Below are positions 989 through 60,024 of a stretch of DNA of 64,000 bases, one piece after another. Origin of the DNA: Acidimicrobiia bacterium (GTDB lineage: Bacteria; Actinomycetota; Acidimicrobiia; IMCC26256; JACDBD01); contig DASPXI010000046.1 in NCBI GenBank assembly GCA_035637335.1, positions 1,311-65,310 of the forward strand, in the 5' to 3' direction. A program made the translations under genes and the position numbers. Under the pieces are notes generated by a model that saw only the letters and a program-made list of their open reading frames with translations, did no database searches and was not told where the DNA came from. The number at the start of each line of letters is the position of its first letter. Position 1 is the stretch's first letter.

Positions 989-1747
989 TTATAGGAACGC
1001 GCGTGCAACCTCGAGTGCGGCGACGGCGCCCTCGCCCTCGGCGACCAGACCCCGCGCTTCGTCACGCGTCATCCGCTGCACGAACAGGCGGCAGAACTCG
1101 CCCGCCGGTCCCGTGATCCGGTTGGACGATCCTTCCGGCCCGTACTCCCACGTCTCGTCGCCGGACGGCGACGTGAGCTCGACCCGAATGTCACCCGGTG
1201 GCGGCTCGTGCCCCGCGAACGAGAACGCGTACGGGAGGGCGCGGTGGCTGAGCCAGGCGACGTGCCGGAGAGCGTCGGTATCGACGACGGGAAGGCCCAG
1301 CGCGGCGCGCACGTCGAGACCGTGCGCCCACGCCTCCATGAGGCGGGCTGTCACGAATGAGGGTGGGCGCATCCCGAGGCCCCACGGAACGCGCGTGGCG
1401 GCGTCGAGGCCGGCGAGCACGTTCCGCTCACGGGCCGACGTCTCCTCCCACCACGCCAGCACGTCGCGCCCGGAGCACCGGCGACCGCGCAGCACACCCC
1501 ACAAGGTCGTGTCCTCGGCGGACGCGAAGCGAGCCGCGAAGTCGTTGAGGGGACGTGGTCCCCCGGTGCAAGTGTCGATGGCGATCTCGTCGGTGTCGGC
1601 AAGGTGCGCGATCGTGTCGCGGACGTCCCAGCCCTTGGCCGGCGTCGGCCGGAACCAGTCGTCCGCGTTCAGGTCATGTAGCTCTGTCTGCAGGCTCGTC
1701 TGGTCGTGCTCGAGCGCCTCGAGCAGCGAACGGAAGTCAGTGTCCAC
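989..1747 (-). CDS. Maleylpyruvate isomerase-family, mycothiol-dependent (DinB-like, TIGR03084-type) protein
   Basis: The C-terminal 252 aa of track ORF 989..2071 has DinB-like sequence (WDVRDTIAHLADTD...). The N-terminal 108 aa of the track ORF is Arg/Ser-rich and overlaps the upstream gene. An in-frame GTG at 1747 gives an 11-nt overlap with the upstream stop. Confidence 0.7.
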   Translation of the reverse strand: MDTDFRSLLEALEHDQTSLQTELHDLNADDWFRPTPAKGWDVRDTIAHLADTDEIAIDTCTGGPRPLNDFAARFASAEDTTLWGVLRGRRCSGRDVLAWWEETSARERNVLAGLDAATRVPWGLGMRPPSFVTARLMEAWAHGLDVRAALGLPVVDTDALRHVAWLSHRALPYAFSFAGHEPPPGDIRVELTSPSGDETWEYGPEGSSNRITGPAGEFCRLFVQRMTRDEARGLVAEGEGAVAALEVARAFL

Positions 1748-2567
1748 TGCTCCAGCGGCGAGAGCCGTTCGTCGCGCGCGAAGCCGGACGCCGGCGCGTG
1801 AATTGCACCGGGACTTCGGAGGGATGCGGTGCCGGCGGAGGCTCCGCCCGCGTCCGGTCGTCGAGGTAGGCGACCACCTGCTTGTACAGCTCGTCGCCGA
1901 GCATCTTGCGCATCTCCTCGGCCATCGAACGGTAGACAGGCTCGGAGGCGGTGAAGGCCTCGGGAGCCTCGGTGCACCACCACGCGAACTCCCGACCGCC
2001 CTCGCCCCAACCGTCGCGACCGAACTCCGAGAACGTCGAGACGACCGAACCGTCCTCCTGCTCTTCGTCAACCGAGCGAAGCGGTAACTGCCAGCACACG
2101 TCGGGCTTCAGGTCGCTGTGATGCTGCCCGGTACGGATGGCGTGTTGGTGCAGCGCGCACCCCGGCCCGCCCGGGAATCCGGGTCGGTTCAAGAAGATGC
2201 AGGCGTCGTCGACGAGGCGGGTGCGCCATTCGATGCGTCCCTCCTCGTCCTTGCCGCTCTTCGCGTAAATGCCCTTGGCGCGTCCGGTCTTCGCGTACTG
2301 CCACTCATCATCGGAAAGTTCCTTTGCCGCGCGCACGACGCGATCGCGGTCCTTGCGGCTCGAGAAGTGCGCTCCATAGGAGCAGCAGCCCTGCACCATT
2401 TCCGCCGCGGGCTCGGTGAGCACACCCTGGCAGCCGTGCCCGAAGATGCACTGCCAGTGCGAAGTCAGGAACGTGACGTCGATCTGCCAGCGCCGGCCCT
2501 CTTCCTTCGGGTCGTCGAAGGTCACCCACTCACGGGTCGGCCCGGACCGGGTTCGCGGCGCGCTCAA
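1737..2567 (-). CDS. Conserved Cys-rich hypothetical protein
   Basis: Track ORF 1737..2618. Cys clusters HWQCIFGHGCQGV, GCCSYGAHF, GCALH and DVCWQLP. I place the start at TTG 2567, which is preceded by GGAAG 5 nt upstream. The 17 codons further upstream are the repeated three-box element, not protein. Confidence 0.65.
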   Translation of the reverse strand: MSAPRTRSGPTREWVTFDDPKEEGRRWQIDVTFLTSHWQCIFGHGCQGVLTEPAAEMVQGCCSYGAHFSSRKDRDRVVRAAKELSDDEWQYAKTGRAKGIYAKSGKDEEGRIEWRTRLVDDACIFLNRPGFPGGPGCALHQHAIRTGQHHSDLKPDVCWQLPLRSVDEEQEDGSVVSTFSEFGRDGWGEGGREFAWWCTEAPEAFTASEPVYRSMAEEMRKMLGDELYKQVVAYLDDRTRAEPPPAPHPSEVPVQFTRRRPASRATNGSRRWSSGH

Positions 2568-2574
2568 AATGCTT

Positions 2575-2632
2575 CCTTTCGCCGTCGCAAGCTCCGGCTG
2601 TGCAGCGACGGTCGGCAAAGCCGCCGTCGCTG
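2575..2632 (-). promoter_or_regulatory. Three-box leader element, copy A
   Basis: Minus-strand sequence GCGACGGCGGCTTTGCCGACCGTCGCTGCACAGCCGGAGCTTGCGACGGCGAAAGGAAG. It is near-identical to the copies at 31570, 38545 and 41106. Confidence 0.65.
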
Positions 2633-2638
2633 CCGCCG

Positions 2639-2644
2639 AGAGTA
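2639..2644 (-). promoter_or_regulatory. Candidate -10 box (TACTCT) for the Cys-rich gene
   Basis: TANNNT hexamer preceded by TGTG. It ends 8 nt before box 1 of copy A (10 nt before its GACGG core), close to the geometry upstream of pafA. Confidence 0.35.
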
Positions 2645-2659
2645 CACACCTCTCATCGG

Positions 2660-2665
2660 TAGGCT
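2660..2665 (+). promoter_or_regulatory. Candidate -10 box (TAGGCT) for glcD
   Basis: GGTAGGCT lies 6 nt upstream of the in-frame ATC at 2672. The same hexamer recurs at 22013, 33998, 36337 and 36563. Confidence 0.35.
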
Positions 2666-2809
2666 TTACATATCGACGGCAGTGGTGATGCCCACGCGCT
2701 CGTAGCCGACCTCGAGTCCAAGCTCGGCCCCGGCCGGGCGCGCGCCGAGCCGCTGGAGCTCGCGCTGTACCAGCGTGACGCCGGTGTCGATCGCGGCGAT
2801 GCCGCCGCC

Positions 2810-4108
2810 GTGTGCTTCCCGAACAGCGGCGTGGAGCTCGCCGCCGCCGTGCGCATCGCGGCGCAGCACGGTCGTCCGTTCGTGGCCCGCGGGAGCGGCA
2901 CCGGCCTCGCCGGGGGAGCGACCCCGGTGGGCGACCCGCTCGTGATCGTCACCACACATCTCAACCGGATCCTCGAGGTGAACGCCGAAGACAGGTACGC
3001 GTGGGTGGAGCCCGGAGTGCTCAACCTCGATCTGACTCGGGCGGTTCAGCACCTGAACCTGCACTACGCGCCGGATCCGTCGTCGCAGCAGGCGTGCACG
3101 ATCGGCGGCAACGTGGCGACGAACGCCGGGGGCCCGCATTGCCTCGCTGCCGGAGTCACTGCAATGCACGTGCTGGCGATCGAGGTCGTGCTGGCGGACG
3201 GTTCCACGACGATGCTCGGAGGCCTCGAGCCCGACCAGCCCGGCTACGACCTGCGCGGCTGTTTCGTCGGCAGCGAGGGCACGATGGGCATCGCGACCCG
3301 GATCGCGGTGCGGCTCGTGCCCGACCCGCCCGCGGTGCGCACGTTGCTGCTCGACTTCATGTCGATCGACGACGCCGCCGCGACCGTGAGCGCCATCATC
3401 GCCGACGGCATCGTTCCTGCCGCCCTCGAGATGATGGACGCCGAGATCACGCGGGCGGTCGAGGACTTCGTGGGGGCGGGATACCCACGGGACGCCGCCG
3501 CCGTCTTGCTCGTCGAGCTCGACGGGCTCCCGGCCGGAGTCGCCGCCCAGGTCGACGCGGTGCGTCGCATCGGGACGAAGCACAGCGCGCGCGCCGTGCG
3601 CGTGGCGGCCGACGAGGCCGAGCGCGCGCTGCTGTGGAAGGGACGCAAGTCGGCGTTCGGCGCCATCGCCCGTATCGCACCCGACTACTACCTCCACGAC
3701 GCCGTCGTGCCCCGCACCCGGCTCGTCGACGTGCTTCGGGACGTCTACCGGATCGCCGGCGAGTACGACCTGACGATGATGAACGTCTTCCACGCCGGCG
3801 ACGGCAACCTCCACCCGCTGATCGCGTTCGACCAGCGCCAGCCCGGCGTCTGGGAACGGGTGCATGCCGCCGGTGACGCCATCCTGCGTGTCTGCGTCGA
3901 CGCCGGTGGCGTGCTCTCGGGCGAGCACGGCATCGGGCTCGAGAAGCGGGAGGCGATGCCGCTGGTCTTCACGGCCGACGACCTCGATGCGCAGGCGAGG
4001 CTGCGGGACGCATTCGACCCTTCGGGCCGCGCCAATCCGCAAAAGATCCTGCCCCGCGGAAGCCGCTGCGGGGAGCTGCAGCGCATACCCGAAGGAGCTT
4101 GGGTCTGA
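2810..4108 (+). CDS. glcD: Glycolate oxidase subunit GlcD (FAD-linked oxidase). The true start is probably upstream, near 2672.
   Basis: Track ORF of 432 aa with an FAD-binding PCMH-type N-terminal region (RGSGTGLAGGA). The frame stays open and GlcD-like back to 2663 without any ATG/GTG/TTG. Confidence 0.85.
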   Translation: MCFPNSGVELAAAVRIAAQHGRPFVARGSGTGLAGGATPVGDPLVIVTTHLNRILEVNAEDRYAWVEPGVLNLDLTRAVQHLNLHYAPDPSSQQACTIGGNVATNAGGPHCLAAGVTAMHVLAIEVVLADGSTTMLGGLEPDQPGYDLRGCFVGSEGTMGIATRIAVRLVPDPPAVRTLLLDFMSIDDAAATVSAIIADGIVPAALEMMDAEITRAVEDFVGAGYPRDAAAVLLVELDGLPAGVAAQVDAVRRIGTKHSARAVRVAADEAERALLWKGRKSAFGAIARIAPDYYLHDAVVPRTRLVDVLRDVYRIAGEYDLTMMNVFHAGDGNLHPLIAFDQRQPGVWERVHAAGDAILRVCVDAGGVLSGEHGIGLEKREAMPLVFTADDLDAQARLRDAFDPSGRANPQKILPRGSRCGELQRIPEGAWV

Positions 4109-31352: not shown

Positions 31353-31565
31353 ATGTCCGGCAGCGATGCTGTGTGGCCGATCGTCGCGTTCTTTGTGGCT
31401 TTCATCGGCGGAACCCTGGTCACGGTCGGAAGCCTCGGGTTCATCTTCCGGTGGATGAACAGCGACGACGATGACAGCAGGTTCGACCTGTCTCCGTCGG
31501 AGACGATCGCCCAGGCCGTGCCGAAGACGAGGGCCGGTTGGGGCGGCGACGCTACCGAGGGCTGA
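31353..31565 (+). CDS. Small membrane protein (70 aa), hypothetical
   Basis: Track ORF with one clear TM helix (WPIVAFFVAFIGGTLVTVGSLGFIF). The stop lies 4 nt before three-box copy B. Confidence 0.35.
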   Translation: MSGSDAVWPIVAFFVAFIGGTLVTVGSLGFIFRWMNSDDDDSRFDLSPSETIAQAVPKTRAGWGGDATEG

Positions 31566-31569
31566 CGCG

Positions 31570-31660
31570 GCGACGGCGGCTTTGCCGACTGCCGTTGCAA
31601 AGCCCGAGCATGCGAGGGCGACAGAGAAGCAGAGCCGGAGCTTGCGACGGCGCCAGACAG
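31570..31660 (+). promoter_or_regulatory. Three-box element, copy B (orphan, with a tandemly duplicated 3' half)
   Basis: GCGACGGCGGCTTTGCCGACTGCCGTTGCAAAGCCCGAGCATGCGAGGGCGACAGAGAAGCAGAGCCGGAGCTTGCGACGGCGCCAGACAG. Confidence 0.6.
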
Positions 31661-32115: not shown

Positions 32116-32186
32116 GTGCCCCGGGATCGTAAGAACCCGGGTGTAGGGTGCGCGGCGAGTGCCCGTCCGCAGTGGGAGGTGGTCAC

Positions 32187-33941
32187 GTGGCCTCCGAGCA
32201 CGAGCGACGCCTCGGAGAATACGAACGCCAGGTTGGTGAGCTCCAGCAGCAGGTGAAGGCGCTGGAGGAGGAAGTCGTCGTCCTGCGGCGTCGGCTGCAG
32301 GACGCTCCGAAGCGGGTGCGGACGCTCGAGGAGCGGCTGCTCGAGACGAAGGGCCAGCTGGCGCAGGCCGTCTCCCAGAACGAGAAGCTCTCGGCCACCT
32401 TGCGCGAGGCGCGCGAGCACATCGGCGCGCTGCGCGAAGAGGTCGAGAAGCTGACGATGCCGCCGTCGGCTTACGGGACGTTCCTCACCTCCAACGACGA
32501 CGGCACCGTCGACGTGTTCACGGCCGGCCGCAAGATGCGCGTCGCCTTGCATCCCGAGCTCGACGTCGACGAGCTCCAGCGGGGCCAGGAGGTCGTGCTC
32601 AACGAATCGCTCAACGTCGTGCTCGCGCGCGGCCACGACGTCGCCGGTGAGGTCGTCACGCTGAAGGAGCTGCTCGAAGACGGCCGACGCGCGCTCGTGG
32701 TCGGGCGGGCCGACGAGGAGCGCGTCTGCGAGCTCGGCACCGGCCTGTTCGGCGAGCGACTCCGCGCCGGCGACCACCTGCTGATGGAGACCCGATCGGG
32801 TGTGCTGGTCGAGCGGCTGCCACGTCCCGAAGTCGACGAGCTCATCCTCGAAGAAGTGCCCGACATCACGTACGGCGATGTCGGTGGGCTCGACGACCAG
32901 ATCGAGCAGATCCAGGACGCCGTCGAGCTTCCGTATCTGTATGCAGATCTCTTCCAGGAGCACCAGCTGCAGCCGCCCAAGGGGATCCTGCTCTACGGCC
33001 CGCCCGGCTGTGGCAAGACGCTCATCGCGAAGGCGGTCGCCAACTCGCTCGCGAAGCGCGTGGCGGAGAAGACGGGCGACAGCACGACGCGCTCGTACTT
33101 CCTCAACATCAAAGGCCCGGAGCTGCTCAACAAGTACGTGGGCGAGACCGAGCGCCAGATCCGGCTCATCTTCCAGCGGGCTCGGGAGAAGTCGGAGGAA
33201 GGCGTGCCCGTGATCGTCTTCTTCGACGAGATGGATTCGCTGTTCCGCACGCGCGGGTCAGGCATCTCCTCCGACATCGAGAGCACGATCGTCCCGCAGC
33301 TGCTCGCCGAGATCGACGGCGTCGAGAGCCTCAAGAACGTCATCGTGATCGGCGCCTCGAACCGAGAAGACCTCATCGACCCCGCGATCCTTCGGCCCGG
33401 CCGGCTCGACGTGAAGATCAAGATCGAGCGTCCCGACCGAGAGGCAGCGCGCCAGATCTTCAGTCGCTACCTGCGCGACGAGCTGCCGATCGCCGACGAG
33501 GAGAGCACGGAGCACGGCGGGAGGCGGCAGGCGGTTGCGTCGATGATCGAAGCCGCGGTCGACAGGATGTACGCCGACGACGAGGACAACCGGTTCCTCG
33601 AGGTCACCTACCAGAACGGCGACAAGCAAGTCCTGTACTTCAAGGACTTCGCCTCCGGCGCCATGATCGAGAACGTCGTGCGGCGGTCGAAGAAGATGTC
33701 GATCAAGCGGCAGATCGCCGGGGGCGAGAAGGGCATCTCGAGCGCCGACCTCATCGACGCGATCCGGCAGGAGTACCGCGAGCACGAGGACCTGCCGAAC
33801 ACGACGAATCCCGACGACTGGGCGAAGATCTCGGGGAAGAAGGGCGAGCGCATCGTCTTCGTGCGCACGCTGCTCGCCGACGACGAGGGCACCGGTGGCG
33901 GCCGGCAGATCGAGCGCGTCACCACCGGGCAATACCTCTGA
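32187..33941 (+). CDS. arc: Proteasome-associated AAA ATPase ARC/Mpa
   Basis: N-terminal coiled coil, Walker A GPPGCGKT, and the C-terminal GQYL 20S-docking motif. GTG 32187 is preceded by GGGAGGTGG. Confidence 0.92.
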
Positions 33942-34010: not shown

Positions 34011-35498
34011 GTGGCCGTGCCCAAGGTCTGTGGGATCGAGACCGAATACGGCGTCGCGCTTCGCGGAGCAACCGACGCCAACCCGGTGCTGGCCTCGTCG
34101 ATGCTCATCAACGCCTACGTCGAGCACCGCAAGGTGGGCTGGGACTTCGAGGACGAATCACCGGGCCGCGACGCCCGCGGCTTCGCCCGTGAGGGTGCGT
34201 CGCCGCCGGAGATCGAGACCCACCTCGTCAACACCGTGCTCACCAACGGTGCGCGCTACTACGTCGATCATGCGCATCCGGAGTATTCGACGCCGGAGTG
34301 CGCCGACGTGCTCGAGCTCGTCTGCGCCGACAAGGCGGGGGAGCGGATCCTCGCCCGTTCGATGAAGGCGGCCAGACACCTCCTCGGCTCGGGGCAGGAG
34401 ATCGTCGTCTACAAGAACAACACCGACGGGAAGGGCAACTCGTACGGCTGCCACGAGAACTACCTGGTCGACCGGGCGGTGCCCTTCGCCACGCTGGTTC
34501 GGCACCTGCTGCCGTGGTTCGTCACCCGGCAGGTGTTCACCGGCGCGGGCAAGGTCGGGGGGGAGAACGGCACCGGGCACACCGGCTACCAGCTGAGCCA
34601 GCGCGCAGACTTCTTCGAGGAAGAGGTCGGCCTCGAGACCACGCTGAAGCGCCCGATTGTCAACACCCGCGACGAGCCGCACGCCGACCCGCAGAAGTAC
34701 CGGCGGCTGCACGTGATCGTCGGTGACGCCAACCTGTGTGAAGTCGCGACGTTCCTGAAAGTCGGAACGACCGCCGTTCTGCTGGCGATGATCGAAGACG
34801 ACTTCATCGACAAGGACTACTCGATTGTTTCGCCCGTTCCCGCGATGCGCGCCGTCTCCCACGATCCTGAGCTGCGGGCGACTGTCGAGCTCGTCGACGG
34901 AGGGACGATTTCCGCGGTCGACCTGCAGTGGGAGTTCCTTCGCCTCGCTCAGAAGTACGCCGACGATGTCGGCCTCGAAGCGTGTGGTGGCGAGGAGCTC
35001 GGGCAGCAGGTGCTCGCCCGGTGGGAGTCGACGCTCGCAGGGCTCGAGCGCGACCCGATGACGCTCAACGGACAGCTGGACTGGGTCACGAAGCTGGAGC
35101 TGCTCGACGCGTACCGCGAGCGTGACGGCATCGATTGGGAGGACCCGAAGCTGGCGCTGCTCGACCTCCAATACCATGACGTGCGCCCTGAGAAGTCGTT
35201 GTTCGAACGGCTGGTGCGGGCGGGTAAGGTCGAGCGGTTGGTCGAGGAACCCGACGTGACGACCGCCATGACCGAACCGCCTGCGAACACCCGTGCATAC
35301 TTCCGAGGCCAGTGCCTGGCCAAGTGGGCCGACGCGGTCGTGGCCGCCAACTGGGACAGCCTCATCCTCGACGTGGGCAGCGATCCACTGCGACGCATCC
35401 CGATGATGGAGCCGCTGCGGGGAACGCAGGCCCACGTCGCGTCGTTGTTCGAGGAGTGCACGACCCCGGCCGAGCTGGTGGCTCGGCTGGCGTCGTAG
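34011..35498 (+). CDS. dop: Pup deamidase/depupylase Dop
   Basis: 495 aa, GIETEYG N-terminus, Pup-ligase/carboxylate-amine ligase fold with the extra Dop-type insertion relative to PafA. Lies next to pup. Confidence 0.9.
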
Positions 35499-35775: not shown

Positions 35776-36339
35776 ATGAAGCGTTGCAAGAAGTGCGGTG
35801 CGTTGAAGCGCATCGACGACTTCTACCGGAACGGGGCACGCGACAGTCGTAGGCCTGAGTGCAAAGCGTGCACAAACGCACTGCGACTGAAGCGATATCG
35901 GCTCAATCGGGAAAAGGAGATTGCGCGCGTTCGAGCATGGCAGCGCGCAAATCCTGATCGAGTGAAAGCGTGGCGCGAGAAGAACCGTGACCGTCGCCTT
36001 GAGCAGCTGCGCGAGATTCATCTGCGCAACAAGTTCGGCCTCACGGTTGACGAATACAACCGCATTCTCGAAGCGCAGGGCGGTGTGTGTGCGATCTGCG
36101 AGAGCCCTCCCACCCCGGGGATCTCGCTGCATGTCGACCATGACCACGGCACGGGCGAGATCCGCGGTCTGCTGTGTGTGCGCTGCAACAACGCGCTCGG
36201 ACTGTTCCGGGAAGACACCGATCTGCTCAAGCGCGCTGCTCGCTATGTCAGCGCCGACGCCAAGCACCGGTCGCAGCGCACCAAATGGGAGCGGCTTGCC
36301 CGCGGACGGGCGCTCGCGTTGCGGGGGAGTGCGGCGTAG
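35776..36339 (+). CDS. Recombination endonuclease VII family protein (free-standing, low-GC)
   Basis: CAICE-x11-HVDHDHGTGEIRGLLCVRCNNALG matches the endonuclease VII zinc/His-Me finger core. Codon usage is visibly less GC-biased than in the neighbours. Confidence 0.8.
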   Translation: MKRCKKCGALKRIDDFYRNGARDSRRPECKACTNALRLKRYRLNREKEIARVRAWQRANPDRVKAWREKNRDRRLEQLREIHLRNKFGLTVDEYNRILEAQGGVCAICESPPTPGISLHVDHDHGTGEIRGLLCVRCNNALGLFREDTDLLKRAARYVSADAKHRSQRTKWERLARGRALALRGSAA

Positions 36340-38449: not shown

Positions 38450-38531
38450 GGATTCTCCCTTGCCGCGGTCCGCGGACGCGATCCTACGGCGTACGGGGGC
38501 GAACCGGCGCGGAAAGTGGCCCCGGTGCCAG

Positions 38532-38537
38532 TACGCT
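38532..38537 (+). promoter_or_regulatory. Candidate -10 box (TACGCT) for pafA
   Basis: TANNNT hexamer ending 7 nt before box 1 of copy C (10 nt before its GACGG core). Confidence 0.35.
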
Positions 38538-38544
38538 CCGCGCG

Positions 38545-38598
38545 GGGACGGCGGCTTTGCTGACCGTCACCGCAAAGCCGGAGCTTGCGACGGCGACA
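38545..38598 (+). promoter_or_regulatory. Three-box leader element, copy C
   Basis: GGGACGGCGGCTTTGCTGACCGTCACCGCAAAGCCGGAGCTTGCGACGGCGACA. It is followed by GGAGGAA and the pafA GTG. Confidence 0.65.
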
Positions 38599-38608
38599 AT
38601 GGAGGAAC

Positions 38609-39967
38609 GTGGAGCGCCGAATCTTCGGTCTCGAGAACGAGTACGGGGTCACGTGCACGCTTCGCGGCCAGCGTCGCCTGAGCCCCGACGAGGTGGCGCG
38701 CTATCTGTTCCGCCGCGTCGTCTCGTGGGGTCGGTCCAGCAACGTGTTCCTGGAGAACGGCGCCCGGCTCTACCTGGACGTGGGCAGCCACCCCGAGTAC
38801 GCCACGCCCGAGTGCGATTCGATCGACGACCTCGTCGTGCACGACAAAGCGGGCGAGCGAATCCTCGAAGGTCTCGTACGCAGCGCGGAGCAGCGCCTGC
38901 GCGAAGAAGGCATCCGAGGCGAGGTGTTCCTGTTCAAGAACAACACCGACTCGGCCGGCAACTCCTACGGCTGCCATGAGAACTACCTCGTCGAGCGCGA
39001 CGGCGACTTCGCCAAGTTCACCGACGTGCTCATCCCGTTCCTGGTGACCCGGCAGGTCTATGCGGGCGCAGGAAAGGTTCTCCAGACCGCCCGTGGGGCC
39101 ATGTATTGCGTCAGCCAGCGGGCCGAGCACATCTGGGAGGGCGTGTCCAGCGCCACGACCCGGTCCCGACCGATCATCAACACGCGTGACGAGCCTCATG
39201 CCGACGCCGAGCGCTTCCGGCGACTGCACGTGATCGTCGGCGACTCGAACATGAGCGAGTACACGACGTTCCTGAAGATCGGCGCGACCTCGGTGGTCCT
39301 GAGGATGCTCGAAGAGGACGCCAGCCCTTGGCGTGATCTCACGCTCGAGAACCCGATCCGCGCCATCCGCGAGATCAGCCACGACCTGACCTGCCGCCGC
39401 CGGGTGCGTCTCGCCAACGGCCGCGAGCTGTCGGCGATCGAGATCCAGGCCGAGTACCTCAACCGCGCGCTGCGCTTCGCCAAGCGCCGCGGGCTCGCGC
39501 CGCTCGAGGAGCAGGCGTTGCGTATGTGGGAGCAGGCCATGGTCCGCCTGCAGGACGACCCGCTGTCCCTCGACACCGAGGTCGACTGGGTCATCAAGTA
39601 CCACCTCATCGAGGCGTACCGGAAGCGACACGACCTTCCGCTGACGCACCCGCGTATCGCCTTGCTCGACCTCTCGTATCACGACGTGACGCGCGCGCGT
39701 TCGCTCTACTACCTCCTCGAGCGACGCGGACAGCTCCAGCGCACCGTTCGGGACAGGGACATCGAGAATGCGGTGACGACCCCTCCCCAGACCACCCGAG
39801 CCCGACTTCGGGGCGCGTTCATCAAGCGGGCCAAGGAGCGCAAGCGTGACTACACGGTCGACTGGGTCCACCTGAAGCTGAACGACCAGGCCCAGCGCAC
39901 CGTCCTCTGCAAGGACCCGTTCAAAGCGCGCGACGACCGCGTCGAGCGGCTCATCTCTTCGCTGTAG
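38609..39967 (+). CDS. pafA: Pup--protein ligase PafA
   Basis: [16 protein letters not shown]...[47 protein letters not shown] closely matches my recollection of mycobacterial PafA. GTG 38609 is chosen over the track TTG 38585, which lies inside the leader element. Confidence 0.92.
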
Positions 39968-40041: not shown

Positions 40042-41109
40042 ATGCCGTCGTTTCGGTCGGGGAAGGTGACGCGGCTGCTCGTCGAGCGGCCGGGGTTGCA
40101 GCGCGTCGAAGTCGATCTCGGCGAGGGCCCCGAGCCGGCGTATGTGCTGACGCAGCTGACCGGGACCGTGGCAGTGGGTGATCGGATCGTCGTCAACACC
40201 ACCGCCGTCGAGCTCGGGCTCGGCACGGGCGGCTGGCACGTCGTGCACTGGAACCTCGAACGCGAGTCGTGGGCGGAGCGGGGACCGGGGCACATCATCA
40301 AGGGCCGCTACACGAGCCTCCAAGCCGACGTCGGCAGCACCGAAGAGCACCTCGAAGAGCTGGCCGCGGTCGAGTCGGTCGACGGTATGCCGGTCGTGGC
40401 CGCAGCGCTGCACAGTCAGCTCGCGGCGGCGGCCGTCGCGTTCAAGGAGCGCGCGCCTGACGCGCGGCTGGTGTACGTGATGACCGATGGCGCCGGGCTA
40501 CCGCTCGCGCTGTCGGACCTGGTGTTCGCGCTTCGAGAACGCGGGCTCGTCGACGCCACCGTGACGTGCGGTCACGCCTTCGGCGGTGACTTCGAAGCCG
40601 TGTCGATCTTCTCCGCACTCGCAGTCGCCAGACACGCCGCTGGCGCCGACGCAGTGGTCGTCGCGATGGGACCGGGCATCGTGGGTACGAACAGCCGGCT
40701 CGGATTCTCGGGTATGGAGGTGGGTTCGATCCTCGACGCCGCCGTCGCCCTCGGTGGACAGCCCATCGCTTGCTTGCGGGTCTCGTTCGCCGATCCTCGG
40801 GCGCGCCACGTCGGGCTCTCGCACCACTCCCGTACGGCGCTGCGGCTCGCGTGTCGCGAGCGAGTGGCGGTGGCCGTTCCGAACCTCGCCGGCGATCACG
40901 GCACCCGCCTCCGGGCCGACCTCGAGGACGCGGGCATCGAGCAGCGCCACGATCTGATCGAAGTGACGCCGCCGGACGTGCTCGACCTGTTCGAGCGCCA
41001 CGCCCTCGAGGTCACCTCGATGGGCCGAGCGGCCGCCGACGACCCCGCCCTGTTCCTCGCGGCGGCCGCGGCCGGAGTGCTGGCCGCCGATCGTGCGCGC
41101 CCGCGATGA
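40042..41109 (+). CDS. DUF3866 family protein
   Basis: 355 aa. The N-terminus MPSFRSGKVTRLL...VNTTAVELGLGTGGWHVV matches my recollection of the DUF3866 family. It sits between pafA and pafBC. Confidence 0.7.
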   Translation: MPSFRSGKVTRLLVERPGLQRVEVDLGEGPEPAYVLTQLTGTVAVGDRIVVNTTAVELGLGTGGWHVVHWNLERESWAERGPGHIIKGRYTSLQADVGSTEEHLEELAAVESVDGMPVVAAALHSQLAAAAVAFKERAPDARLVYVMTDGAGLPLALSDLVFALRERGLVDATVTCGHAFGGDFEAVSIFSALAVARHAAGADAVVVAMGPGIVGTNSRLGFSGMEVGSILDAAVALGGQPIACLRVSFADPRARHVGLSHHSRTALRLACRERVAVAVPNLAGDHGTRLRADLEDAGIEQRHDLIEVTPPDVLDLFERHALEVTSMGRAAADDPALFLAAAAAGVLAADRARPR

Positions 41110-41160
41110 CGGCGGCTTTGCCGACCGTCATCGCAGGAGCCGGAGCTCGCGACGGCGACA
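41106..41160 (+). promoter_or_regulatory. Three-box leader element, copy D
   Basis: ATGACGGCGGCTTTGCCGACCGTCATCGCAGGAGCCGGAGCTCGCGACGGCGACA. Box 1 contains the DUF3866 stop codon. The element ends 8 nt before the pafB ATG. Confidence 0.65.
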
Positions 41161-41168
41161 GGTAGCGC

Positions 41169-42098
41169 ATGATCGACCGGCTCGAGCGGCTCACCAATCT
41201 CGTCGCCACGCTGCTCGACACGCGGCGGCCGCTCACGCTGGACGAGATCGTCGAGCTCGTGCCCGGCTACCCGGACGACAAGCTCGCGCATCGCCGTCAG
41301 TTCGAGCGCGACAAGGAGACACTGCGGGGCATCGGAATCCCGGTCCGGCTCGAGCCGGTCGACGACCTCGGTCCGGAGCAGGGATATCGCATCCCGCCCG
41401 ACGAGTACTACCTGCCACCACTGGACCTCACGCCGGATGAGCAGGCGGCGCTGCACGTCGCGGTGACTGCGGTGCGCCTCGAGGGAGGGCCCGCGCCGGC
41501 AGAGGCGCTGTGGAAGCTCGGCGGCCGGGAAGGTGAAGCCGCGAACGCCCTGGCCGCGTTGCCGACCGTGTCGGCGCTGCCCGCGCTGTTCGACGCGTAC
41601 CGCTCGCGGGCGGCGGTGACGTTCACGTATCGGGGCGAGCTGCGGCGCGTCGACCCGTGGGGGATCCTGTTCCGGCGCGGGCACTGGTACGTCGTCGGCC
41701 ACGACCACGACCGCGGCGATCGCCGGTCGTTTCGCGTGGACCGCATCGAAGGGGATGTCGAGACGGGTCCGGCCCGGGCATTCGAGCCGCCGGCCCACCT
41801 CGAGCCGGCGGCGCTGCTCGGCGACGAACCCTGGCGTTACGGCGACGAGGAGGTCGTCTCCGCCCGCGTTGCAGTCGACGCCGCGCAAGCCGCGGCGATC
41901 GTGGAGCAGGTCGGTGAGGATGCGGTCGTCGAACGTCGAGACGACGGGAGCGTCGTGGTGGAGCTCTCGGTCACGAACACCGCTGCTTTCAGATCGTTCG
42001 TCCTCGGGCTCCTGGACGCCGCGGAGGTCATCTCCCCCCCGGAGCTCCGCGACGAGATGCGCGCCTGGCTCGACGCGCTCGCTCGGAGCGACACGTGA
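41169..42098 (+). CDS. pafB: HTH-WYL transcriptional regulator PafB
   Basis: 309 aa with an N-terminal wHTH (LTLDEIVELVPGY) and a WYL domain (RRGHWYVVGHD). Position is right after pafA. Confidence 0.85.
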   Translation: MIDRLERLTNLVATLLDTRRPLTLDEIVELVPGYPDDKLAHRRQFERDKETLRGIGIPVRLEPVDDLGPEQGYRIPPDEYYLPPLDLTPDEQAALHVAVTAVRLEGGPAPAEALWKLGGREGEAANALAALPTVSALPALFDAYRSRAAVTFTYRGELRRVDPWGILFRRGHWYVVGHDHDRGDRRSFRVDRIEGDVETGPARAFEPPAHLEPAALLGDEPWRYGDEEVVSARVAVDAAQAAAIVEQVGEDAVVERRDDGSVVVELSVTNTAAFRSFVLGLLDAAEVISPPELRDEMRAWLDALARSDT

Positions 42099-43039
42099 GC
42101 CCGCGGCCGCTGCCCGGCCCCCGGCTCCGGCGCGTGCTCGCGCTCGTGCCCTGGATCGCCGAGCACCCCGGCGCCGCCCTCACCGACATCGCGGCGCGCT
42201 TCGGGGTGTCGGAGGTAGGCCTCGAACACGACCTCGGGCTCTTGCCGATGTGCGGACTCCCGCCCTACACACCCGATCGGCTCATCGAGGTCGAGATCGT
42301 CGACGGCCACGTGTGGATCCGGTTCGCCGAGTACTTCGAACGTCCGCTGCGGCTGTCGGCTGAGGAAGGCCTCGCCCTGCTCGCAGCGGGCCGCGCGTTG
42401 CTGGCAGTTCCGGGATCCGACGAGCACGGCGCGCTCGCCACTGCGCTCGAAAAGCTCGCTCGAGTCGTCGGCGCTGCCGACGGGCTCGCGGTCGAGGTGG
42501 GGGAGCCGCCGTTCCTCGATGCCTTGCGTCGGGCCACCGATGCGAACGAGCGCGTCGAGATCGACTACTACTCGTTCGGACGCGACGCCACGACGACCCG
42601 CCAGATCGACCCGCAGTCGGTGTTCCACGCCTTCGGCCACTGGTACGCGGCTGCCTACTGCCATCAGGCGGCCGACGAGCGTCTGTTCCGTTTGGATCGC
42701 ATCCGCGCCGTTCGACCGACCGGGAGCCACTTCGAGCCGCCGGCCCGTGAGGACGCGGCCCATTTCGCGAACACCGTGTATCACCCACGCGCCGAGGACC
42801 CACGAGTCACGCTCGAGCTCGCTTCGGAGGCGGCGTGGGTGGTGGAGAGCTACCCGTCCGAGGAGGCGCAAGAGAGGCCCGACGGCTCGTGGCGGGTCGT
42901 CCTTGCGGTCAGCGAACGAGCGTGGCTGGAACGGCTGCTCCTCCAGCTGGGGCCGGCGGCCCGGGTGATGGCGCCCCCCGGGCTACGAGCAGTCGGGGCG
43001 GAAGCCGCGAAAAGGCTCCTCACCCGCTACCGCCGGTGA
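42095..43039 (+). CDS. pafC: HTH-WYL transcriptional regulator PafC
   Basis: 314 aa with a GTGA overlap with pafB. WYL-type motif FGHWYAAAYC. Confidence 0.85.
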   Translation: MSPRPLPGPRLRRVLALVPWIAEHPGAALTDIAARFGVSEVGLEHDLGLLPMCGLPPYTPDRLIEVEIVDGHVWIRFAEYFERPLRLSAEEGLALLAAGRALLAVPGSDEHGALATALEKLARVVGAADGLAVEVGEPPFLDALRRATDANERVEIDYYSFGRDATTTRQIDPQSVFHAFGHWYAAAYCHQAADERLFRLDRIRAVRPTGSHFEPPAREDAAHFANTVYHPRAEDPRVTLELASEAAWVVESYPSEEAQERPDGSWRVVLAVSERAWLERLLLQLGPAARVMAPPGLRAVGAEAAKRLLTRYRR

Positions 43040-59804: not shown

Positions 59805-60003
59805 CCCCGCTCTGTCCCGGGACCTGAGAGATTCACCGGCCGCCGGCGGCCGGCTTTCCCCGTCGGTGAGACCCCGGCCGTGACCGGTGCCCGCTCTCCA
59901 GAGGTGCCTCGCCCGGGCGGTCCATTCGCCTGAGAGTTTCCGGGGAGGGGTTGCTCCTTCGGCTCCCCCGGCCGAGAACGGTCGGGGGGCTCTCCCGCTC
60001 GGG
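59805..60003 (-). ncRNA. Tandem glycine riboswitch (two aptamers) in the gcvP leader
   Basis: Minus-strand aptamer 1: GGGAGAG...GCCGAAGGAGCAA...CTCTCAGGC..GGAC. Aptamer 2: CTCTGGAGAG...CACCGACGGGGAAAG...CTCTCAGG..GGACAGAG. A GGGCCAC/GTGGCCC hairpin follows, then the Shine-Dalgarno. Confidence 0.85.
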
Positions 60004-60024
60004 TTCGACGGCTTTCCCGCGAGG

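What the first reader, a model, noticed from the sequence alone, without database searches (positions are those of the whole stretch)
2565..2665. Copy A of the three-box element ties an uncharacterised Cys-rich gene to the Paf genes and corrects its start codon
- The track ORF 1737..2618 begins MPTVAAQPELATAKGSIL. Those codons are simply the three-box element read in frame.
- A TTG at 2567 lies 5 nt after GGAAG, and the recognisable protein begins there.
- The gene encodes a Cys-rich protein (HWQCIFGHGCQGV, GCCSYGAHF, GCALH).
- It lies 36 kb from pafA but has the same leader and the same promoter-to-element spacing (TACTCT at 2644-2639).
- If the element defines a regulon, this protein is a candidate new partner of the Pup-proteasome/PafBC pathway.
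- The region is also a back-to-back promoter zone shared with glcD (TAGGCT at 2660).
Basis: partly seen in the sequence, partly recalled or inferred. Interest (0 to 1): 0.65.

Follow-up and report, generated by a model that had tools for sequence, protein, structure and literature searches.

The report
Dispersed structured leader repeat, not Paf-specific
The shared "leader" in front of the Cys-rich gene and the paf genes is one copy of a roughly 70-base structured repeat scattered through some Acidimicrobiia genomes; it sits between promoter and start codon of many unrelated housekeeping genes, so it does not link this gene to the Pup-proteasome pathway.

Summary
**Observation: confirmed.**
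- A 55-nt core plus a purine-rich tail lies at 2568-2633 (-).
- It fills the first 17 codons of the track ORF.
- TTG 2567 is the real start.
- The window holds exactly four copies.

- At least 15 species-level Acidimicrobiia/Actinomycetota MAGs carry the element, several copies each.
- It precedes SRP54, TrmD, ScpA, ProRS, RpiB, chorismate mutase, Der, ArfB-like and other unrelated genes.
- None of 80 pafA loci (74-97% identical PafA) has it before pafA.
- None of three Rv0495c-family loci has it.
- In near-identical relatives, pafA and the Cys-rich gene are leaderless (-10, 6-7 nt, GTG), and pafB overlaps the upstream stop (ATGA).
- So copies A, C and D are recent insertions.

**What the element is.**
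- It has a covarying 14-bp hairpin, a 4-bp hairpin and its own Shine-Dalgarno tail.
- 18 of 41 copies start 3-12 nt after a TANNNT hexamer.
- 20 of 41 end 10-16 nt before a start codon.
- The most likely reading is a REP/MITE-like "portable 5' leader" that turns leaderless genes into SD-led ones.
- It matches nothing in Rfam, and I found no paper containing its sequence.
- How it moves, and what factor recognises it, are unknown.

**The protein.** It belongs to the Rv0495c family (PF11307).

The parts
2639..2644 (-). -10-like hexamer TACTCT of the Cys-rich gene's promoter. It belongs to the host, not the element.
   Evidence: The same hexamer is present in the element-free relative L001, followed 7 nt later by the GTG start.
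2602..2633 (-). Copy A, hairpin P1: 14 bp, one bulged A (2612), UUU loop (2619-2617).
   Evidence: Folds at -41.8 kcal/mol, z = -3.1. The lower stem covaries across 41 copies.
2581..2598 (-). Copy A, hairpin P2: GCCG/CGGC stem with a nearly invariant loop GAGCUUGCGA.
   Evidence: Compensated variants GCCC/GGGC and GCUC/GAGC occur in other copies.
2568..2580 (-). Copy A, purine-rich tail carrying the Shine-Dalgarno sequence (GGAAG, 2576-2572).
   Evidence: Tail columns 65-69 are at least 80% purine across the 41 copies. The tail is part of the inserted DNA in the empty/filled site comparisons.
1737..2567 (-). Corrected CDS of the Cys-rich Rv0495c-family (PF11307) protein: TTG start, 276 aa plus stop.
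2660..2665 (+). -10-like TAGGCT of the divergent glcD-like gene.
   Evidence: Conserved in L001, L002 and L003.
31567..31653 (+). Copy B: a full but weakened copy (31567-31621) plus a duplicated second half (31629-31653). It lies between convergent genes and is not a leader.
38542..38608 (+). Copy C: core plus tail (SD GGAGGA), between -10 TACGCT (38532-38537) and the pafA GTG at 38609.
   Evidence: The empty site in L121 and L120 has no insert: L121 reads TACGCTccgcgtGTGGAG and L120 has the same -10-to-GTG spacing.
41103..41168 (+). Copy D: core plus tail between DUF3866 and the pafB ATG at 41169. The DUF3866 stop codon (TGA, 41107-41109) now lies inside the P1 5' strand.
   Evidence: The empty site in L120 reads gcgATGAccgacc, with the stop overlapping the start.

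Best explanation
Copy A is one member of a dispersed, structured repeat of about 70 nt that is restricted to certain Acidimicrobiia lineages. I call it a portable 5' leader.

**Shown:**
- The element has three parts: a 14-bp G+C-rich hairpin with a bulged A and a UUU loop; a 4-bp hairpin with a conserved 10-nt loop; and a purine-rich tail containing a Shine-Dalgarno sequence.
- In this genome it was inserted recently between the -10 hexamer and the start codon of genes that are leaderless in close relatives (the Rv0495c-family gene and pafA).
- It was also inserted into a stop/start overlap (DUF3866-pafB).
- It has no specific relation to the Pup-proteasome/PafBC genes.

**Inferred:**
- Transcription from the host promoter starts at or within the first bases of P1.
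- The mRNA therefore gains a 5'-terminal stem-loop followed by an accessible SD.
- A gene translated in the leaderless (or coupled) mode becomes an SD-dependent one, and the 5' hairpin probably protects the mRNA from 5'-end-dependent decay.
- The paired apex of P1 and the P2 loop are almost invariant. This implies a sequence-specific partner, either a mobilising enzyme or an RNA-binding factor, which is not identified.
- Any co-regulation the element confers would be shared with many other genes (on the order of 100 per genome, by extrapolation), not with paf alone.
For: **Widespread, in front of unrelated genes**
- Seven of those 8-kb loci hold two or three copies.
- Downstream genes are unrelated: SRP54/Ffh, TrmD, ScpA, histidine phosphatase, ProRS, GYD, RpiB, two MDMPI, chorismate mutase, PALP+CBS, a nucleotidyl transferase, a polyketide-cyclase-like protein, an RF-1 domain protein and Der.

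**Position and orientation**
- 18 of 41 copies have TANNNT 3-12 nt upstream; the background rate is 0.4%.
- 20 of 41 have an SD and start codon 10-16 nt downstream in the sense direction. The figure is 1 of 41 antisense and 3% at random positions.

**Structure**
- 93.6% of cells pair and 7 pairs show changes on both sides; 0 of 500 shuffles reach this.
- G.U pairs number 14 against 6 A.C, as expected if the sense strand folds.

**Recent insertion (empty versus filled sites)**
- pafA: L121 reads TACGCTccgcgtGTGGAG; the window has a 61-62-nt insert at that point.
- pafB: L120 reads gcgATGAccgacc; the window has the insert.
- Cys-rich gene: L001 reads TACTCTgcgcgacGTGAGC; the window has the insert.
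- scpA and aroH in L029/L078 show reciprocal empty and filled states.
- In L120 the element sits on the opposite strand, in the leader of the gene divergent from pafA.

**Absent from relatives**
- The covariance model finds 4 copies in the 64-kb window and 1 in 549 kb of relatives' loci.
Against: - There are no expression data. The TSS position, the stabilising role of P1 and the effect on translation are all inferred.
- No mobilising gene was found in the 1.4 Mb of DNA held, though that test used query sequences recalled from memory and is weak.
- There are no target-site duplications and no terminal inverted repeats, so the mechanism of spread is open.
- The core is strongly conserved across 15 species. 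This would also fit a true cis-regulatory RNA bound by a conserved factor.
- Three of the four window copies lie within 10 kb, in the Pup-proteasome cluster. I attribute this to local clustering, which other loci also show, but cannot prove it.
- The genome-wide copy number is extrapolated, not counted.
Confidence: 0.75

Rival explanations
1. One reading: the element is a cis-regulatory leader that defines a Pup-proteasome/PafBC regulon, and the Cys-rich gene is a new member of it.
For: In this window, three copies lie immediately before pafA, pafB and the Cys-rich gene, with matching spacing to the -10 hexamer and to the start codon.
Against: - 0 of 80 pafA loci and 0 of 3 Rv0495c-family loci in relatives have the element at those positions.
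- Relatives with 97% identical PafA lack it before pafA and pafB.
- In other genomes it precedes unrelated housekeeping genes.
- mpa, dop and pup-prcBA in the window have no copy, and copy B is not a leader.
- The mycobacterial PafBC-type promoter motif TGTCRGTG-N8-TANNNT is absent from the window even at 1 mismatch.
Confidence: 0.03
2. The element is a true trans-regulated leader RNA, the target of an RNA-binding protein, a small RNA or a ligand. It defines a large, fast-changing post-transcriptional regulon in these Acidimicrobiia. New members are recruited by copying the leader, and mobility is secondary.
For: - 22 invariant and 23 nearly invariant columns across copies from 15 species, including paired positions and the P2 loop.
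- Covariation in both helices.
- Strict sense orientation and fixed spacing to start codons.
- The tail carries an SD sequence.
Against: - Among the 17 typed downstream genes only MDMPI recurs across species (two loci that may be paralogues), and there is no functional theme.
- Presence or absence differs between near-identical genomes.
- Some copies sit between convergent genes, in tandem, or with no gene following.
- P1 is so stable (about -30 kcal/mol) that a ligand- or factor-driven alternative fold is not evident.
Confidence: 0.17
3. The element is a DNA operator: a palindromic site, with repeated GCGACGGCG motifs, for a transcription factor acting just downstream of the -10.
For: - The core GACGGCGGCTTTGCCGACCGTC is an imperfect palindrome.
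- GCGACGGCG recurs in box 3.
- The element sits where a repressor would block RNA polymerase.
Against: - Compensatory double changes keep the pairing while changing the sequence, in the lower P1 stem and in P2; the P2 changes alter box 3 itself.
- G.U pairs outnumber A.C.
- Orientation is strictly tied to the downstream gene, and the element includes an SD.
- Copies also occur in 3' regions and between cistrons.
Confidence: 0.04

Closest known systems
REP/BIME elements with RAYT (Y1 HUH) transposases, and IS200/IS605-derived palindrome-associated elements (from my own knowledge)
   Same: - Short, dispersed intergenic repeats built around an imperfect hairpin.
- The sequence is conserved across copies.
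- No target-site duplication; presence or absence at a site is precise.
- A hairpin-recognising enzyme is the expected partner.
   Different: - REPs are 20-40 nt, carry a 5' GTAG and sit mostly at 3' ends of genes, in both orientations.
- This element is about 70 nt and has two hairpins plus an SD tail.
- It is strongly sense-oriented and sits at the transcription start, just before start codons.
- No RAYT or TnpA gene was found in the DNA held (a weak test).
Correia elements (CREE/NEMIS) of Neisseria, and ERIC/IRU of enterobacteria (from my own knowledge)
   Same: - Dispersed repeats that are co-transcribed with neighbouring genes.
- They fold into hairpins in mRNA and change the expression or stability of adjacent genes.
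- Strains differ in which sites are occupied.
   Different: - Those are true MITEs of 100-155 nt with terminal inverted repeats and TA duplications.
- Here no terminal inverted repeats or duplications are seen.
- Here the element supplies an SD and occupies the whole 5' UTR.
MIRU (mycobacterial interspersed repetitive units) (from my own knowledge)
   Same: - An actinobacterial repeat of 40-100 bp found between genes of an operon.
- It has a single orientation relative to transcription.
- It overlaps stop and start codons, as copy D does at DUF3866-pafB.
   Different: - MIRUs are tandem VNTR-type units with small in-frame ORFs and no prominent conserved hairpin.
- This element is mostly single-copy at each site; tandem copies occur only in L098.
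- Nearly half the copies lie directly behind a promoter -10.
5'-terminal stabiliser stem-loops (the ompA type in E. coli; 5' hairpins that block RNase J or RNase E entry) (from my own knowledge)
   Same: A stable hairpin within a few nucleotides of the mRNA 5' end, followed by an accessible ribosome-binding site.
   Different: - Those are individual leaders specific to one gene, with no need for sequence conservation.
- Here one conserved sequence is reused at many genes, and it is polymorphic between strains.
PafBC / RecA-NDp promoter regulon of mycobacteria (from my own knowledge of Müller et al. 2018)
   Same: Only that pafB and pafC are encoded here.
   Different: - The RecA-NDp motif lies upstream of and overlapping the -10, and acts at the DNA level.
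- It is absent from the window.
- The element lies downstream of the -10 and is not specific to paf.

Membership tests
PafBC/RecA-NDp regulon | Promoter motif TGTCRGTG-N8-TANNNT upstream of member genes | tested here: not met
   0 matches in the window at up to 1 mismatch. The sequence upstream of TACTCT is gatgagaggtgtg.
PafBC/RecA-NDp regulon | The same cis element is conserved at orthologous genes in related genomes | tested here: not met
   0 of 80 pafA loci and 0 of 3 Rv0495c-family loci carry the element at the orthologous site.
Cis-regulatory RNA / riboswitch class | A conserved, covarying secondary structure | tested here: met
   P1 and P2 together: 93.6% of cells paired, 7 pairs with double changes, 0 of 500 shuffles reach this. 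Caveat: the copies are related to one another.
Cis-regulatory RNA / riboswitch class | Recurrent association with a coherent gene set across species | tested here: not met
   The 17 downstream genes fall into 16 different Pfam families; only MDMPI recurs.
Cis-regulatory RNA / riboswitch class | Match to a curated Rfam family | tested here: not met
   No match at gathering score. Nothing better than E = 6 in the permissive scan.
MITE (including Correia/ERIC type) | Terminal inverted repeats at both ends and a target-site duplication | tested here: not met
   P1 is internal to the 5' half, and the 3' tail has no inverted partner. The best flank match is 5.41 of 8 nt against 5.28 in controls, and three pairs from genomes with 97% identical PafA show no consistent duplication.
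MITE / mobile repeat in general | Presence/absence polymorphism at orthologous sites in closely related genomes | tested here: met
   Six empty/filled pairs: pafA, pafB, the Cys-rich gene, the DUF2007 gene in L120, and scpA and aroH in L029/L078.
REP/RAYT or IS200/IS605-derived element | A cognate Y1 (HUH) transposase gene in the same genome | tested here: inconclusive
   tblastn with IS200 TnpA and E. coli RAYT sequences recalled from memory found nothing below E = 0.18 in 1.4 Mb of fragments. Whole genomes were not available.
REP/RAYT or IS200/IS605-derived element | A conserved tetranucleotide or pentanucleotide 5' of the insertion point | tested here: inconclusive
   Left flanks are G+C-rich and usually end in C before GCGG, but no fixed motif emerges.
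MIRU | Tandem arrays of variable copy number in intercistronic regions | tested here: not met
   Only L098 has two tandem units, and window B has a partial duplication. All other sites hold a single copy.
Rv0495c family (PF11307) for the Cys-rich protein | Significant match to the family model | tested here: inconclusive
   All 120 listed homologues (68-89% identical) carry precomputed PF11307, named Rv0495c. The local Pfam copy returns nothing, even for those homologues, so it appears to lack the model.

The most novel reading that the evidence does not exclude
The element is a previously undescribed mobile '5' UTR cassette'. It is aimed at the few bases between the -10 hexamer and the +1 start codon of leaderless genes, for example by an enzyme that acts on the single-stranded DNA of open promoter complexes. 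There it installs a 5' hairpin and a Shine-Dalgarno sequence. This would rewire leaderless genes to SD-dependent translation and place dozens to hundreds of genes under one hairpin-binding factor.
Probability: 0.25. Interest if true: 0.7.

Novelty: new variant of a known kind. Interest (0 to 1): 0.42.

Why it matters
**For annotation**
- Gene callers read the element as N-terminal coding sequence, as in ORF 1737..2618. The same risk applies to any gene that follows a copy.

**For the question asked**
- The result removes a tempting but false regulon link between an Rv0495c-family redox protein and the Pup-proteasome system.

**For biology**
- The element is an unusual kind of bacterial repeat. 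Nearly half of its copies occupy exactly the space between a promoter -10 and a start codon.
- Empty-site comparisons show it converting leaderless or translationally coupled genes into SD-led ones.
- If confirmed by transcript mapping, it would be a natural system for studying how leaderless and SD-dependent initiation interconvert, and how a selfish or domesticated repeat can change expression of core genes between near-identical strains.

Tried and rejected
- **Rfam:** nothing for the element at gathering score or in the permissive E-value scan.
- **Literature:** full-text searches for the element's exact sequence, and for Acidimicrobiia repeats or MITEs, found nothing relevant.
- **Target-site duplication:** no signal. 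The long flanking repeat in L098 is simply a tandem duplication.
- **Lower stem copied from the target flank:** I considered that the lower P1 stem is an inverted copy of the target flank. GCGATGA pre-exists at the empty pafB site, and GCGCGAC at the empty site of the Cys-rich gene. I rejected this as a general rule because most copies share GCGGCGAC/GUCGCCGC and the L120 insertion does not fit.
- **Transposase partner:** tblastn with recalled IS200 TnpA and RAYT sequences gave no hits.
- **PafBC-type promoter motif:** none in the window.
- **Sigma-70 consensus and terminator scan of 2400-2900:** nothing. This is expected, because actinobacterial promoters lack a strong -35.
- **Protein searches for the Cys-rich protein:** nothing from Pfam, NCBIfam or PDB sequence searches. 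The local Pfam copy lacks PF11307.
- **Alternative pairing:** the P1 apex GGCUUUGC could pair with the linker GCARAGCC or the tail CAAAGG. I noted this but did not pursue it, because P1 is far more stable.

Full report
**1. What is at 2565-2665**

On the minus strand the region reads as follows:
- TACTCT (2644-2639), then a 5-nt spacer.
- GCAGCGACGGCGGC-TTT-GCCG-A-CCGTCGCTGC (2633-2602).
- CA, then AGCCGGAGCTTGCGACGGCGA (2599-2579).
- AAGGAAGCATT (2578-2568), then TTG (2567-2565).

The mechanically listed ORF 1737..2618 starts at a TTG inside this stretch and reads through it. Box 1 occurs 4 times in the window and box 2 occurs 5 times, against 0 in shuffles. A covariance model run without filters finds exactly four full copies:
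- A: 2562-2638 (-)
- B: 31562-31638 (+)
- C: 38537-38613 (+)
- D: 41098-41175 (+)

**2. Gene context**

The window carries a Pup-proteasome cluster:
- mpa: 32148-33941
- dop: 34011-35498
- pafA: GTG 38609 to 39967
- DUF3866 gene: 40042-41109
- pafB: 41169-42098
- pafC: 42095-43039

Copy C ends 12 nt before the pafA GTG. Copy D ends 10 nt before the pafB ATG and contains the DUF3866 stop codon. Copy B is not a leader: it lies between the stop of a 70-aa ORF and the 3' end of a convergent ferredoxin gene, and independent gene calls on the same organism's contigs agree. The closest named relatives of the Cys-rich protein are Acidimicrobiia MAG proteins.

**3. The start codon**

L001 encodes a protein 89% identical to the Cys-rich protein. 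It has the same upstream sequence...gatatgtgaagcctaccgacgaggggtgtgTACTCT, followed by gcgcgacGTGAGCGCG, with no element. That GTG aligns with TTG 2567. Homologue N-termini vary, conservation begins at SGPTREW, and P0008 starts MSARQTRSGP.

All 120 listed homologues carry PF11307, named 'Rv0495c'. The local Pfam copy lacks that model. A preprint links Rv0495c to redox homeostasis in M. tuberculosis.

**4. Is the element paf-specific?**

No.

*It is widespread.*
- About two thirds of the hits are box-1-only chance matches in other phyla.
- Thirty loci from 15 Acidimicrobiia/Actinomycetota MAGs carry the complete element.
- A profile search finds further copies in the same 8-kb loci: three in L026; two each in L013, L051, L058 and L087; a tandem pair in L098; and one and a half in L046.

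*It precedes unrelated genes.* The genes that follow are SRP54/Ffh, TrmD, ScpA, a histidine phosphatase, ProRS, a GYD protein, RpiB, two MDMPI/DinB proteins, chorismate mutase, a PALP+CBS enzyme, a nucleotidyl transferase, a polyketide-cyclase-like protein, an RF-1-domain protein and Der.

*It is absent from relatives' paf loci.*
- I fetched 80 metagenomic pafA loci whose PafA is 74-97% identical to the window's.
- None has the element before pafA, by profile search or covariance model.
- L001, L002 and L003 also lack it before the Rv0495c-family gene.
- In 549 kb of relatives' DNA there is one copy, against four in the 64-kb window.

**5. Empty and filled sites**

- **pafA.** L121 (PafA 97% identical) reads TACGCTccgcgtGTGGAGCG, so pafA is leaderless. 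L120 has the same arrangement, with cccctt in place of ccgcgt. The window reads TACGCTccgcg[61-62 nt]GTGGAGCG. Nearly all 80 pafA loci show TAnnnT, 6-7 nt, then ATG or GTG.
- **pafB.** L120 reads gcgATGAccgaccgg, with the DUF3866 stop overlapping the pafB start. The window has the insert, with ATGA at both ends.
- **The gene divergent from pafA.** L120 has a copy on the opposite strand, in the leader of the DUF2007 gene. L121 has none there.
- **scpA and aroH.** In two MAGs about 85% identical, L029 has the element before scpA and L078 does not, while L078 has it before aroH and L029 does not. Both empty sites are again -10, 8 nt, then ATG or GTG.
- **L037 versus L117.** The element lies on opposite sides of a shared divergent promoter region.

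The inserted DNA always includes the purine-rich SD tail. I found no consistent target-site duplication.

**6. Anatomy and constraints**

An alignment of 41 copies has 22 invariant and 23 nearly invariant columns.

*Structure.*
- For P1 (14 bp, bulged A, UUU loop) plus P2 (4 bp), 93.6% of cells pair.
- Seven pairs change on both sides, and 0 of 500 shuffles reach the observed values. The usual caveat applies: the copies are related.
- Covariation is concentrated in the lower P1 stem (GCGGC/GCCGC, GCGAU/AUCGC, GCAGC/GCUGC, GCGAAG/CUUCGC) and in P2 (GCCC/GGGC three times, GCUC/GAGC once).
- The apex of P1 and the P2 loop do not vary.
- G.U pairs outnumber A.C by 14 to 6.

*Position.*
- 18 of 41 copies have a TANNNT hexamer ending 3-12 nt before the first base; the background rate is 0.4%.
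- 20 of 41 have an SD and a start codon opening an ORF of at least 60 aa 10-16 nt after the core. The figure is 1 of 41 in antisense and 3% at random positions.
- The hexamers belong to the host: they are present in the empty sites.

**7. Interpretation**

*Shown.* This is a dispersed, oriented, structured repeat that varies between strains. It occupies the 5' UTR and carries its own SD. Copies A, C and D are recent insertions into leaderless or overlapping starts.

*Inferred.*
- With a -10 hexamer 3-5 nt upstream, transcription should begin in the first bases of P1. That gives a 5'-terminal stem-loop, a known protector against 5'-end-dependent decay in other bacteria (my own knowledge), followed by an unpaired SD.
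- The invariant paired apex and P2 loop imply a sequence-specific partner. I cannot tell whether it is a mobilising enzyme or an RNA-binding regulator.
- Nearly half the copies sit in a window of about 7 nt behind promoters, rather than in neutral 3' spacers. This suggests targeting or positive selection rather than tolerance alone.

*Copy number (extrapolated).* Roughly 10 extra copies occur in about 225 kb of element-positive loci, and 4 in the 64-kb window. That gives one copy per 16-25 kb, or on the order of 100 or more per genome. This was not counted directly.

**8. Comparison with known systems**

- There is no Rfam family, and no paper in the searchable library contains the sequence.
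- The element works like REP, Correia, ERIC or MIRU-type repeats that are co-transcribed with genes.
- It fails the MITE criteria: no terminal inverted repeats and no target-site duplication.
- It is not a VNTR-type MIRU.
- Its position and built-in SD differ from REPs.
- It is not the PafBC/RecA-NDp promoter.

**9. Verdict**

The start-codon correction stands. The Paf link does not. The element itself is an apparently undescribed repeat of moderate interest.

Noticed in passing
window 2660-2812 (+); also L001, L002, L003: The glcD-like FAD oxidase seems to start 46 codons upstream of the first canonical start (GTG 2810).
- TAGGCT, 6 nt, then ATC GA(C/G) is conserved in all four genomes.
- The TAG of the hexamer is the in-frame stop.
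- The 46 codons are conserved as protein (…LVADLE..LG…RARAEPLELALYQRDAG).
- This suggests a leaderless mRNA with a non-canonical ATC start.
   Followed up: partly
window 35776-36339 (+): A 187-aa Endonuclease_7 (PF02945) gene sits between pup and prcB inside the proteasome operon. This is an unusual insertion into pup-prcBA.
   Followed up: no
window 59810-60007 (-): A tandem glycine riboswitch: two aptamers scoring 62.8 and 41.6 bits.
   Followed up: no
window about 38450-38486 (leader of the DUF2007 gene divergent from pafA): The leader...cgcgTCCGCGGACCGCGGCAAGGGAGAATCC-ATG, resembles the 3' part and SD tail of the element that L120 carries at this site. L121 has only a short leader. It may be the scar of an internally deleted copy.
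   Followed up: partly
element-led genes in the window (2567), L026, L030, L078, L081: - TTG start codons are frequent behind the element: about 5 of 20 copies.
- In two empty/filled pairs the start codon is GTG in the empty (leaderless) site and TTG in the filled site: L001 versus the window, and L029 versus L078.
- This fits relaxed start-codon requirements once an SD is supplied, or a junction that falls at +1.
   Followed up: partly
L098 3948-4067; window 31567-31653; L046 1767-1854: Tandem or partial internal duplications of the element occur: two full units in L098, a duplicated second half in window copy B, and one and a half units in L046.
   Followed up: partly
L201 (ENA ERZ14695916, record DNA_vOTU_2240, 301,680 bp): The contig with the same sequence as the window is labelled a viral OTU. 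Yet it carries the proteasome, tat, thyX and lnt housekeeping genes, so the label looks wrong.
   Followed up: no
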